Shown: piece after piece, positions 24,001 through 27,000 of the stretch
Layout of the letters: each line of letters starts with the position of its first letter
Numbering within the stretch: the first letter of the stretch is position 1
NCBI RefSeq assembly: GCF_000026545.1
Contig: NC_011601.1
Direction: 5' to 3' (one strand)
Length of the DNA: 64,000 nt
DNA from: Escherichia coli O127:H6 str. E2348/69
GTDB lineage: Bacteria > Pseudomonadota > Gammaproteobacteria > Enterobacterales > Enterobacteriaceae
Position numbers: made by a program

Positions 24001-27000
24001 TATCTGATGCTGGGATTGCCCATCCCGGCAGTGATGGAGGTAGCCAGTAAAATCCTGTTCCATCCTTCAGTTTTGCCCTGTGCCACCCCTGCTTTTTATC
24101 GAGAGATGTTTGTGCGAAACCTTCCTCAAGGTTATACAGATACCGACCGATTCCCCACTGAACGGCAGCGCGCTTCATTGCACCGGAACGACCGCCTTTG
24201 ACAGCTTCTACCTGCGTGTTTTCAGCAGCATCCCATTTGGTTACCCATTCGGAATCAATCCTGATTGATATGCCGCATTCAACGCCTCCGTTGTTGGGAA
24301 TATCGCGGTATTCATTGCGCCATCCTGCTTTGCCGCAAACATCGTCCAGACGTTTCATGATTGCCCGGTTCGTGACATAAGCCAGCACCATAGCCCACAC
24401 CTTGCCATCGCGTGTTTTACCGCTTTGCTGTATTCGCCATTCGATATCTTCAGGGCTGAATGGCTCATCGAATTTGTTCAAATCCATAATTCACCTCAGA
24501 ATGGACACGGCCCAAGGAAATAACGCTGATTTAATACTTCGACTCGGGACAAATTAAGGCATACCCGCATTCCTTCGCGGTCGCCATTATGGCGATACCA
24601 GAGAGCTTTCTGCGTGTACATGCGTCTCTGTAACTTGCTCTCCTTCACTGTGGTTGCAAGTGACATGAATATCTCCTTCGTTACCGATTAATTCTTTCAT
24701 CTGACGAATGAATTCTTCGTCTGAGCAGTTATCTGTAAAACTCATTTCCTGCGATACCACGGAAGGTTGATAGCTGATTTCATCGCTTTATTTGCTTCAA
24801 GCCACATTTTGGAATCACCAATAAATCTGGCTATTACTGCTTTGTTCTGTGCAGCACGAAGCATCTGGTGATTGATGGCTATTTCATTGCGCATAACGCC
24901 TCCAGTTGTTTCTTTGCTGCTCTGATTAATTGTTTAACTCGGCGTGATAATTCAGATTCGTGCGGGTAGAAAGCGGACATGACGCCGCTACCCGCGAGCT
25001 GAAAGTGCATCATGGGTAACTCCTTATATTTGATTGCATAACGAAAACGCCTCGAGTGAAGCGTTATTGGTATGCGGTAAAGCCGCACTCAGGCGGCCTT
25101 GATAGTCATATCATCTGAATCAAATATTCCTGATGTATCGATATCGGTAATTCTTATTCCTTCACTACCATCCATTGGAGGCCATCCTTCCTGACCATTT
25201 CCATCATCCCAGTCGAACTCACAAACAACACCATATGCATTTAAGTCTTTCGAAATTGCTATAAGCAGAGCATGTTGCGCCAGCATGATTAATACAGCAT
25301 TTAATACAGAGCCGTGTTTATTGAGTCGGTATTCAGAGTCTGACCAGAAATTATTAATCTGGTGAAGTTTTTCCTCTGTCATTACGTCATGGTCGATTTC
25401 AATTTCTATTGATGCTTTCCAGTCGTAATCAATGATGTATTTTTTGATGTTTGACATCTATTCATATCCTCATAGATAAAAAATCGCCCTCACATTAGAG
25501 GGCAAAGAAGATTTCCAATAATCAGAACAAGTCGGCTCCTGTTTAGTTACGAGCGACATTGCTCCGTGTATTCACTCGTTGGAATGAATACACAGTGCTT
25601 ATTCGTACTAATAAAACACCCAATTTTCTGTTTCTTGGTTGTGTCCAAAGTTATATTCAATATCTGGTGTTGATGTATCAATATTCTTCATCCCATCAAC
25701 AAGAGTTGATACAACAGCCAAATCTTGTTTGATTCTCATCAAATGGTATTTCTTTCGGCGCAATAAACTTTCAATGGCAAGTTTCTTCGTCGGGAATGCA
25801 AAAGATCTTTCTGCATTTTTTGCTACTTTCTTAATTGCATATCTATTTCTCCTTTGTTTCCATTCCTGTAACCACTGATTTGGTGCTGGTTTAAAATTAA
25901 CAATCCAATGCGCAGGAACCAACCATGCATAATGCTCTGTCTGATGAAAAGCTATATATTGAAGTGCGAATATTTTGATCCCATCTTCTTCAACTGTCGC
26001 CTGGAATCTCCAGAAAACAGGCATTCCATCATGTTCAGTTTCTGATTCAGGAAAAGGTACGCTCCATGATTTTGTCATATCTCACCTCAAATAAGTGGTT
26101 TGCTGCCTAATTTCATTTTCTGGCGACCAACACAAGTCATCTTGCTGTCAGTTGTTTGGATTTCCGGTAGCCTGCCGCGTAAAGAGCTACGTTCGGAAGA
26201 CAAGTTGAGCCTTCATATTTTCTGGTCAACGTTGTCAGTGTTATTACTTCTGCTCTCATTGCTGGTTTGCGCTTGCATTGCAAGACCACTCGAGAGGGGG
26301 TTGGTCTGTGTAGCTTGTCGGAGCTAATCGCCTCCTGACTTTGCAGGTTTGCGCGACGAGCTCTACGACGAGAAGCTGAGGTGCCTTTAAATTCTGTTTT
26401 TCTGGACATAGATTCCTCCCGAATAAACTTTGGTGATGCAATCTCGAAGCTCCTCCTGAGACGGTTGCTTCGGCATTGCATCCCACAGCTCATGTGGTTG
26501 GGTGATCTGGCTTTTCAGCCACGTAGTCGAGAGTTCGACGTTGTTTAAAGAGCCTGCCAGTCTGTTCCGTTTGGCTTCCAGCGTCCTGCTGACGGTTAAA
26601 TAGTACGATATGTACTTTATTGGGTCAATACGATTTGTTATAAAATAGGGTGATTTTTTATAACACTTTGTATTTAATAGTGTTGTTTTTTAGCGTGGGT
26701 GTATCGCCTCGGCGATGTAAGGAGAGATCAGAATTGCGTGGTTTAGTGAGTTGTATCTATTTATTTTTCAATAAATACATTTGGTTATGTGTCTTTAGGT
26801 GGGGGCGTGAGGCAAAGAAAACCCGGCGCTGAGGCCGGGGTATGCATTTATGGTTTTTTTTGGTCGTGCTTTGCTAGGGCTTTATGAGTTTTCTTAATGC
26901 TGCTTCTAACTTTCTGAATTTTTTCTTGGGAAAGTTTTATGTTTTCAGGGGCTGTTCCAGTGTTAGAAATCATTACATTGCGAACAGATCTCCCTACGGT

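What the first reader, a model, noticed from the sequence alone, without database searches (positions are those of the whole stretch)
24587..25013. Cluster of three translationally coupled micro-ORFs (kil-like, cIII-like, acidic peptide)
Three short ORFs of 44-52 aa overlap by ATGA or by a few codons on the pL transcript. One resembles lambda Kil in its FIGD-KMW core; another has a cIII-like helix and a strong SD. They are below the ORF-track size cutoff and easy to miss.
Basis: inference. Interest (0 to 1): 0.25.

Follow-up and report, generated by a model that had tools for sequence, protein, structure and literature searches.

The report
Known prophage cIII–kil small-gene cassette
The three tiny overlapping genes are real.

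Summary
cIII is 25013..24879 (44 aa), kil is 24894..24742 (50 aa) and ORF3 is 24745..24587 (52 aa, net charge -9). cIII and kil overlap by 16 nt; kil and ORF3 overlap by ATGA.

cIII and Kil are 100% identical to the phage HK97 proteins. They pass Pfam cIII (2e-30) and Lambda_Kil (1.7e-20). The DNA is 100% identical to a prophage of E. coli E2348/69. The context is a standard lambdoid pL operon: repressor, pL, N, cIII, kil, Rad52-like annealing protein, SSB, Abc2, int.

ORF3 is Sf6 gene 30, equivalent to the N-terminal part of HK97 gp42.1. Its first 26 codons are under purifying selection; its tail is not.

It lies in the +1 frame and overlaps ORF3 by 80 nt. It has its own strong Shine-Dalgarno site and always sits directly upstream of a phage annealing-protein gene.

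ORF3 shares only an SDEEFI motif with P22 Arf, so homology is unproven.

Verdict: already known and ordinary. The only open point is the function of ORF3 and ORF4.

The parts
24879..25013 (-). cIII, 44 aa, HK022/HK97-class CIII (FtsH inhibitor that stabilises CII)
   Evidence: Pfam PF08134 at E 2e-30, 104.7 bits. 100% identical to HK97 CIII. dN/dS about 0.26 against Enterobacter phage MII_001. AAGGAG at 25025..25020.
24742..24894 (-). kil, 50 aa, lambda-Kil family division inhibitor
   Evidence: Pfam PF06301 at E 1.7e-20. phrog_2055 at E 1e-35. 100% identical to HK97 Kil and 47% to lambda Kil, with the FIGD turn conserved. PGAP names it Kil in E2348/69.
24587..24745 (-). ORF3, a 52-aa acidic peptide (net charge -9). 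Equivalent to Sf6 gene 30, the HK97 gp42.1 N-terminal part, and HK022p38. ATGA overlap with kil.
   Evidence: phrog_2123 at E 2e-40. 98% identical to Sf6 gene 30. Codons 1-26 have dN/dS 0.33, while the tail has 1.4. All non-singleton polymorphisms in the non-overlapping part fall at third codon positions.
24496..24666 (-). A 56-aa basic peptide (net charge +6). Equivalent to Sf6 gene 29 and HK97 gp42. It is in the +1 frame relative to ORF3 with an 80-nt overlap, and has its own AAGGAG site.
   Evidence: phrog_1723 at E 9e-36. 100% identical to Sf6 gene 29. In the overlap, variation is synonymous in the ORF4 frame. AlphaFold2 predicts a helical hairpin at pLDDT 92.8. The family has an invariant C-terminal ...FLGxxPF.
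25046..25065 (-). Hairpin followed by a T-run in the cIII leader (terminator-like), shared with HK97
   Evidence: Consensus scan. Identical sequence upstream of HK97 cIII. RNA fold z-score -3.1 for the leader. Function not shown.
23780..24487 (-). Rad52/22-family single-strand annealing protein gene. It starts 8 nt after the ORF4 stop.
   Evidence: Pfam PF04098 at E 7e-26.
26137..26493 (-). N antiterminator gene, marking the pL operon that carries the cassette
   Evidence: Pfam PF25694 N_peptide at E 7.6e-32. Promoter-like site at 26628..26600.

Best explanation
The interval is the small-gene cassette of the early-left (pL) operon of an HK97/HK022-type lambdoid prophage of E. coli. After induction or infection, transcription from pL is carried through the upstream terminators by N and reaches cIII, kil, ORF3, ORF4 and the recombination genes.

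- **CIII** is an amphipathic-helix peptide. It competitively inhibits the host protease FtsH and so protects the phage CII activator, which is encoded at 28898..29194. This favours lysogeny.
- **Kil** is a helix-turn-helix hairpin peptide. It blocks FtsZ-ring assembly in a ZipA-dependent way and causes transient filamentation.
- **ORF3 and ORF4** are real but uncharacterised peptides. ORF3 is acidic, with a conserved 26-residue N-terminal helix and an unconstrained tail. ORF4 is a basic helical hairpin ending in an invariant ...FLGxxPF. Their fixed position directly 5' of the annealing-protein gene suggests they are accessory factors of the phage recombination module, functionally analogous to P22 Arf.

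Translation: cIII, kil and ORF4 start from their own Shine-Dalgarno sites. ORF3 most likely starts by termination-reinitiation at the kil ATGA.

Shown here: gene identities, context, and purifying selection. Inferred from the literature on lambda, HK022 and HK629 homologues: the FtsH and FtsZ mechanisms. Inferred from synteny only: a recombination role for ORF3 and ORF4.
For: **Identity of cIII and kil**
- Pfam and PHROG hits.
- 100% identity to the HK97 proteins.
- The same gene order is annotated in HK97, mEpX2 and Sf6.
- Mechanisms of the homologues: PMC1838920 for CIII and FtsH, including the HK022 class; PMC3961180 and PMC11762379 for Kil, FtsZ, ZipA and the G-D turn.

**Context**
- N, repressor, CII, SSB, Abc2 and integrase are all identified.
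- The sequence is 100% identical to the E2348/69 chromosome and is found in 1105 of 5426 complete E. coli genomes.

**ORF3 and ORF4 are coding**
- Codon-position pattern of polymorphism in 60 unique loci.
- Nei-Gojobori comparison with Enterobacter phage MII_001: dN/dS is 0.33 for ORF3 codons 1-26, 0.28 for the overlap in the ORF4 frame, and 1.4 for the overlap in the ORF3 frame.
- ORF3's N-terminus is kept across three different C-terminal types.

**Link of ORF4 to recombination genes**
- It lies immediately 5' of Erf (HK97, L091, L093), of a Rad52-like gene (this window, Sf6) and of a Sak4-like ATPase (Erwinia phage 59, Enterobacter MII_001, L092).

**Hints of an Arf-like role for ORF3**
- It shares the SDEEFI motif, its small size and its negative charge with P22 Arf.
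- One public source names an ORF3 homologue 'accessory recombination function protein'.
Against: - No expression or phenotype data exist for this locus.
- ORF3 fails the Pfam Arf model PF17585 (no hit at E<=1). The profile-profile comparison gives only 11% probability over 17 columns.
- ORF3 lacks a well-spaced Shine-Dalgarno site. It is truncated to 7 aa in one of 80 loci, and in another only its unconstrained tail is cut, at 36 aa. PGAP does not call it.
- ORF3's N-terminal module also occurs without ORF4 and without kil, as in HK140. This weakens any obligate ORF3-ORF4 partnership.
- A recombination role for ORF3 and ORF4 rests on gene order alone.
Confidence: 0.9

Rival explanations
1. Only cIII, kil and ORF4 are genes. 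ORF3 is an untranslated frame left open by chance between kil and ORF4.
For: ORF3 has no properly spaced Shine-Dalgarno site. PGAP omits it. Its C-terminal half evolves with dN/dS of about 1.4 and varies in length between 35, 52 and 56 aa. A 7-aa truncated allele exists. Such ORF chains arise by chance in 35% of random sequences.
Against: Codons 1-26 have dN/dS of 0.33 against a copy with about 54% amino-acid identity, and the substitutions are conservative. Every non-singleton polymorphism in the non-overlapping part is at a third codon position. The N-terminal 16-22 residues are retained across mosaic junctions with unrelated tails, and even without kil. The ORF is open in all but one or two of the 80 loci.
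Confidence: 0.15
2. ORF3 and ORF4 are normally made as one fusion protein of about 82 aa by a programmed +1 frameshift, as in the HK97 gp42.1 annotation.
For: HK97 encodes an in-frame 83-aa fusion. Many 81-83-aa fusion alleles exist, one of them on 36 contigs. ORF4 is in the +1 frame of ORF3. AlphaFold2 models the fusion as three helices.
Against: The fusion junctions lie at many different positions in the overlap, as expected of independent 1-nt indels or sequencing errors rather than one slippery site. ORF4 keeps its own AAGGAG and ATG. It also exists as a stand-alone 56-65-aa gene in distant relatives that lack an overlapping ORF3.
Confidence: 0.05
3. ORF3 and/or ORF4 have nothing to do with recombination. 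They are host-takeover or anti-defence peptides that merely sit in the pL operon, like kil.
For: Neither has a detectable homologue of known function. Their neighbours cIII and kil are small peptides that target host proteins. ORF3's N-terminal module occurs with different downstream genes.
Against: ORF4 lies 8-10 nt upstream of annealing-protein genes of three unrelated families across divergent phages. That pattern is what co-function would predict.
Confidence: 0.3

Closest known systems
Phage HK97 cIII-kil-42.1/42 cassette (also HK022 cIII-kil-p38, Sf6 genes 32-31-30-29, mEpX2_038-035)
   Same: Same gene order and overlaps. CIII and Kil are 100% identical to HK97. ORF3 is 98% and ORF4 100% identical to Sf6 genes 30 and 29. 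The DNA is 94-99% identical.
   Different: In HK97, a 2-nt length difference fuses ORF3 and ORF4 into gp42.1. Here, as in Sf6, they are separate overlapping frames. The downstream annealing protein is Rad52-like here and in Sf6, but Erf in HK97.
Phage lambda cIII and kil
   Same: Same position in the pL operon, between ea10 (DUF2528) and the recombination genes. In both phages cIII overlaps kil. Kil is 47% identical, with the FIGD turn. The CIII central helix is conserved, with 10 invariant columns.
   Different: CIII belongs to the shorter HK022 class (44 aa against 54 aa; Pfam PF08134, not PF02061). Kil ends in YRRK rather than RSSK. Lambda has gam directly after kil and has no ORF3 or ORF4.
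Phage P22 Arf (accessory recombination function, Pfam PF17585)
   Same: Both are small, very acidic peptides (net charge -11 for Arf, -9 for ORF3). Both are encoded after kil and before the annealing-protein gene. They share an N-terminal SDEEFI motif.
   Different: There is no significant sequence or profile match. ORF4 lies between ORF3 and the annealing-protein gene. P22 kil is unrelated to lambda kil.

Membership tests
Lambda Kil (Pfam PF06301) | Matches the family HMM above the curated cut-off | tested here: met
   72.6 bits against a cut-off of 27.6, E 1.7e-20, covering profile positions 1-31 of 31.
Lambda Kil (Pfam PF06301) | Two helices joined by the essential Gly-Asp turn (lambda G19-D20) | tested here: met
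   The alignment places G26-D27 of FIGDSKMW on lambda's FIGDEKMF. The turn is essential according to PMC11762379. The fold itself was not modelled here.
Lambda Kil (Pfam PF06301) | Polar, basic C-terminal RSK/RSSK-type motif | tested here: inconclusive
   The C-terminus is ...PWYRRK: basic, but not RSK.
Lambda Kil (Pfam PF06301) | ZipA-dependent block of FtsZ-ring assembly and filamentation | not testable with these tools
   Needs expression in E. coli.
CIII, HK022 class (Pfam PF08134) | Matches the family HMM above the curated cut-off | tested here: met
   104.7 bits against a cut-off of 25, E 2e-30. The lambda-class model PF02061 gives only 12.4 bits.
CIII, HK022 class (Pfam PF08134) | Conserved central amphipathic helix, equivalent to lambda residues 14-37 | tested here: met
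   ESELSRRVKQLIRAAKKQLEAL aligns to lambda ESLLERITRKLRDGWKRLIDIL, and the N-terminal AG motif is conserved. The region is defined in PMC1838920.
CIII, HK022 class (Pfam PF08134) | A cognate CII gene in the same phage | tested here: met
   Pfam Phage_CII at E 2e-34, at 28898..29194 on the plus strand.
CIII, HK022 class (Pfam PF08134) | Inhibits FtsH and stabilises CII | not testable with these tools
   Biochemical or genetic assay needed.
P22 Arf (Pfam PF17585) | Matches the family HMM | tested here: not met
   No Pfam hit for ORF3 at E<=1. PHROG Arf (phrog_2445) reaches only E 0.069, with HK97 gp42.1.
P22 Arf (Pfam PF17585) | Profile-profile similarity | tested here: inconclusive
   hhalign gives 11% probability and P 0.0027 over 17 columns around SDEEFI.
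P22 Arf (Pfam PF17585) | Small acidic peptide encoded between kil and the annealing-protein gene | tested here: met
   Net charge -9 against -11 for Arf. The order is kil-ORF3-(ORF4)-Rad52-like here and kil-arf-erf in P22.
P22 Arf (Pfam PF17585) | Stimulates Erf-dependent recombination | not testable with these tools
   Needs phage crosses.
Sf6 gp30 / HK97 gp42.1 N-terminal part (phrog_2123) | Full-length match to the family profile and the same position after kil | tested here: met
   E 2e-40 over 1-52 of 52. 98% identical to Sf6 gene 30.
Sf6 gp29 / HK97 gp42 (phrog_1723) | Full-length match, invariant C-terminal FLGxxPF, and position directly 5' of an annealing-protein gene | tested here: met
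   E 9e-36. 100% identical to Sf6 gene 29. Family alignment. Synteny.

The most novel reading that the evidence does not exclude
ORF3 (acidic, SDEEFI helix) and ORF4 (basic helical hairpin with an invariant C-terminal ...FLGxxPF) may form an unrecognised two-peptide accessory module of phage single-strand-annealing recombination systems. It would be portable between Erf, Rad52-like and Sak4-like recombinases and functionally equivalent to P22 Arf.

The C-terminal Pro-Phe of ORF4 might act like the SSB C-terminal tip (DDDIPF) to dock onto SSB-interacting partners.

The recurrent natural ORF3-ORF4 fusions would then be a 'Rosetta stone' sign that the two peptides work together.
Probability: 0.25. 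Interest if true: 0.4.

Novelty: already known. Interest (0 to 1): 0.12.

Why it matters
This matters little as a discovery. cIII and kil of this class are textbook lambdoid genes, and all four ORFs are already annotated in the HK97, HK022, Sf6 and mEpX2 records.

There is practical value for annotation. In E. coli RefSeq genomes, PGAP labels this cIII 'hypothetical' and omits ORF3 and ORF4 altogether. Part of the cassette is found in about 1100 of 5426 complete genomes, so these small genes are under-annotated systematically.

The one open biological point is the function of the ORF3/ORF4 pair. ORF4 sits immediately upstream of three unrelated families of phage annealing proteins. It could therefore be a general recombination cofactor, which would interest anyone doing recombineering.

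Tried and rejected
- **ORF geometry as evidence.** A chain of three overlapping 44-70 aa ORFs occurs in 35 of 100 random 64-kb sequences, so geometry alone proves nothing.
- **Rfam scan of the whole window.** The only hit is a cspA thermoregulator at 14550..14972. Nothing lies in or near the cassette.
- **NCBIfam.** No family for any of the four peptides.
- **Pfam for ORF3 and ORF4.** No hits.
- **Foldseek of the ORF4 model against the PDB.** Only generic helical hairpins, none with E<=0.001. Uninformative.
- **Arf homology.** BLASTP matches the 6-residue motif only. hhalign gives 11% probability. Not accepted as homology.
- **The PHROG label 'recombinase' for ORF3 and ORF4.** It has no support beyond position and is not adopted. 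The PHROG label 'CIII anti-termination' is a misnomer.
- **Literature search for gp42.1 and for Arf/Erf/Kil.** No functional study of ORF3 or ORF4 was found.
- **Plus-strand ORFs in the interval (25-34 aa) and the promoter-like site at 24739..24712.** No conservation or enrichment, since promoter-like sites are fewer than in shuffles. Rejected.
- **AlphaFold2 of an ORF3(1-26)+ORF4 fusion.** Three helices at pLDDT 80.9, but there is no PAE output, so packing cannot be judged.
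Full report
**1. The observation**

All genes in this part of the window run on the minus strand.

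| Gene | Coordinates | Size | Start signal | Overlap |
|---|---|---|---|---|
| cIII | 25013..24879 | 44 aa | AAGGAG at 25025..25020, 6-nt spacer | — |
| kil | 24894..24742 | 50 aa | GGAGG at 24903..24899, 4-nt spacer | 16 nt with cIII |
| ORF3 | 24745..24587 | 52 aa, net charge -9 | AGGA only 1 nt from the ATG | ATGA with the kil stop |

The geometry alone is not unusual. Of 100 first-order Markov random sequences of the same size, 35 contain at least one such chain of three overlapping 44-70 aa ORFs. The case therefore rests on homology and selection.

**2. Identity of cIII and kil**

- The 44-aa ORF hits Pfam cIII (PF08134) at E 2e-30, 104.7 bits against a cut-off of 25.
- The 50-aa ORF hits Pfam Lambda_Kil (PF06301) at E 1.7e-20, 72.6 bits against a cut-off of 27.6.
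- PHROGs agree.
- Both proteins are 100% identical to HK97 CIII and Kil.

Kil is 47% identical to lambda Kil, including FIGD(S/E)KM(W/F). The Gly-Asp in this motif is the inter-helix turn, shown to be essential in lambda Kil (PMC11762379).

CIII belongs to the 'HK022 class' that Kobiler et al. describe as identical in HK022, HK97 and H-19B. Its central helix aligns with the essential lambda 14-37 region (PMC1838920).

Megablast finds the segment in 354 phage records. The same annotated gene order appears in HK97, HK022, mEpX2, Sf6 and others.

The segment is 100% identical to the chromosome of E. coli E2348/69 and other strains. Part of it occurs in 1105 of 5426 complete E. coli genomes.

**3. 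Context**

The neighbourhood is a standard lambdoid early-left operon. Running along the minus strand:

| Feature | Coordinates |
|---|---|
| S24/HTH repressor | 28592..27771 |
| Bro-N gene | 27690..26848 |
| Terminator-like site | 26839..26822 |
| Promoter-like site | 26628..26600 |
| N | 26493..26137 |
| HK97-gp45-like gene | 26078..25608 |
| Terminator-like hairpin | 25505..25484 |
| DUF2528 (lambda ea10 position) | 25457..25089 |
| Hairpin shared with the HK97 cIII leader | 25065..25046 |
| cIII, kil, ORF3, ORF4 | 25013..24496 |
| Rad52/22-family annealing protein | 24487..23780 |
| SSB | 23779..23273 |
| Abc2 | 23259..22966 |
| Ead/Ea22 | — |
| Integrase | 20590..19517 |

CII lies on the other arm at 28898..29194. 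The 'pL transcript' claim is therefore supported by context.

**4. The fourth ORF**

It encodes 56 aa with net charge +6.

- It has AAGGAG at 24678..24673 with a 6-nt spacer.
- It is in the +1 frame relative to ORF3 and overlaps it by 80 nt.
- It ends 8 nt before the Rad52-like start.
- It is 100% identical to Sf6 gene 29 and homologous to HK97 gp42.
- ORF3 is 98% identical to Sf6 gene 30.
- PGAP annotates neither ORF3 nor ORF4 in E2348/69, and calls cIII 'hypothetical'.

**5. Are ORF3 and ORF4 really coding?**

Eighty IMG/VR loci were retrieved through Kil. From these, 60 unique sequences were compared.

- In the ORF3-only part, every non-singleton polymorphism lies at an ORF3 third codon position.
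- In the 80-nt overlap, the variation is synonymous in the ORF4 frame and non-synonymous in the ORF3 frame.

A diverged copy of the whole cassette exists in Enterobacter phage vB_Ecl_MII_001. Nei-Gojobori estimates against that copy:

| Region | dN/dS |
|---|---|
| cIII | 0.26 |
| ORF3 codons 1-26 | 0.33 |
| Overlap, read in the ORF4 frame | 0.28 |
| Overlap, read in the ORF3 frame | 1.4 |

For kil and full-length ORF4, synonymous sites are saturated and pN is about 0.26-0.29.

So all four are under purifying selection. ORF3, however, is constrained only in its N-terminal 26 residues (MSFTDNWSDEEFIRQMKELIGNEGDI). AlphaFold2 models residues 9-26 of this segment as a helix.

ORF3's tail is free to vary. 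Three tail types occur, giving 52, 56 and 35 aa, with a mosaic junction after about codon 17. The N-terminal module even occurs without kil and without ORF4, as in HK140.

**6. ORF3-ORF4 fusions**

HK97 gp42.1 is an in-frame fusion of 83 aa. The protein database holds many 81-83-aa fusions whose junctions lie at different points in the overlap. One of them is seen on 36 contigs.

The scattered junctions argue for independent indels, some probably assembly errors, and against a programmed frameshift. ORF4 also keeps its own start signals, and it exists alone in distant relatives.

**7. What might ORF3 and ORF4 do?**

An HMM search of 1.84 billion representative proteins finds about 20 clusters of 54-65-aa ORF4 relatives. 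All end in ...FLGxxPF. AlphaFold2 predicts a helical hairpin at pLDDT 92.8. Foldseek against the PDB is uninformative.

Wherever context is available, ORF4 lies directly 5' of an annealing-protein gene, from three unrelated families:
- Erf: HK97, L091, L093.
- Rad52-like: this window, Sf6.
- Sak4-like ATPase: Erwinia phage 59, Enterobacter MII_001, L092.

In P22 the gene in this position is arf, a 47-aa acidic 'accessory recombination function'. Its mechanism is unknown (PMC12315714).

ORF3 shares with Arf only the SDEEFI motif, its size and its charge:
- BLASTP aligns 6 residues.
- There is no Pfam PF17585 hit.
- hhalign gives 11% probability.
- One public source labels an ORF3 homologue 'accessory recombination function protein'.

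I therefore treat 'Arf-like accessory recombination peptides' as the most likely function. Confidence is low, about 0.3, and it rests on synteny.

**8. Verdict**

The finding is accurate but ordinary. It is the known cIII-kil-gp42.1/gp42 cassette of HK97/HK022/Sf6-type lambdoid phages, present here in an E. coli prophage.

There are four micro-ORFs, not three. Only ORF3 looks dependent on translational coupling.

Novelty is 'already known' and interest is low. The residual open question is the function of ORF3 and ORF4.

Noticed in passing
window 24496..24666 (-): A fourth micro-ORF (ORF4, 56 aa, basic, = Sf6 gene 29 / HK97 gp42). It overlaps ORF3 by 80 nt in the +1 frame. It is unannotated by PGAP in E. 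coli genomes and always lies directly upstream of a phage annealing-protein gene.
   Followed up: yes
window 23273..23779 (-): The prophage SSB carries the canonical DFDDDIPF tip internally. Fifteen extra residues follow it ([15 protein letters not shown]), so the tip is not at the C-terminus. This is unusual for an SSB.
   Followed up: no
window 14550..14972 (+): Rfam cspA thermoregulator hit (156 bits, E 9e-41). It was the only Rfam hit at gathering threshold in the window.
   Followed up: no
window 26848..27690 (-): A Bro-N domain protein gene lies between the cI-like repressor and pL, where lambda has rexA and rexB. A strong terminator-like hairpin follows it at 26839..26822.
   Followed up: partly
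window about 24894 and about 24695; loci L006-L085: There are sharp mosaic junctions. Two unrelated cIII alleles abut an identical kil exactly at the kil start. A second junction lies inside ORF3 after about codon 17, giving 35-, 52- and 56-aa ORF3 variants.
   Followed up: partly
proteins P0001, P0022, P0031, P0049 (relatives elsewhere): Unusual ORF3 alleles elsewhere: a triplicated 7-residue FIRQMKE repeat (Salmonella Chester); a lambda-N::ORF3 deletion fusion; and many ORF3-ORF4 in-frame fusions caused by 1-nt indels.
   Followed up: partly
window 25046..25065 and 25484..25505 (-): Two terminator-like hairpins lie upstream of cIII. The distal one corresponds to HK97's annotated putative terminator. 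The proximal one is conserved in the HK97 cIII leader. The DUF2528 gene lies between them here but is absent from HK97.
   Followed up: partly
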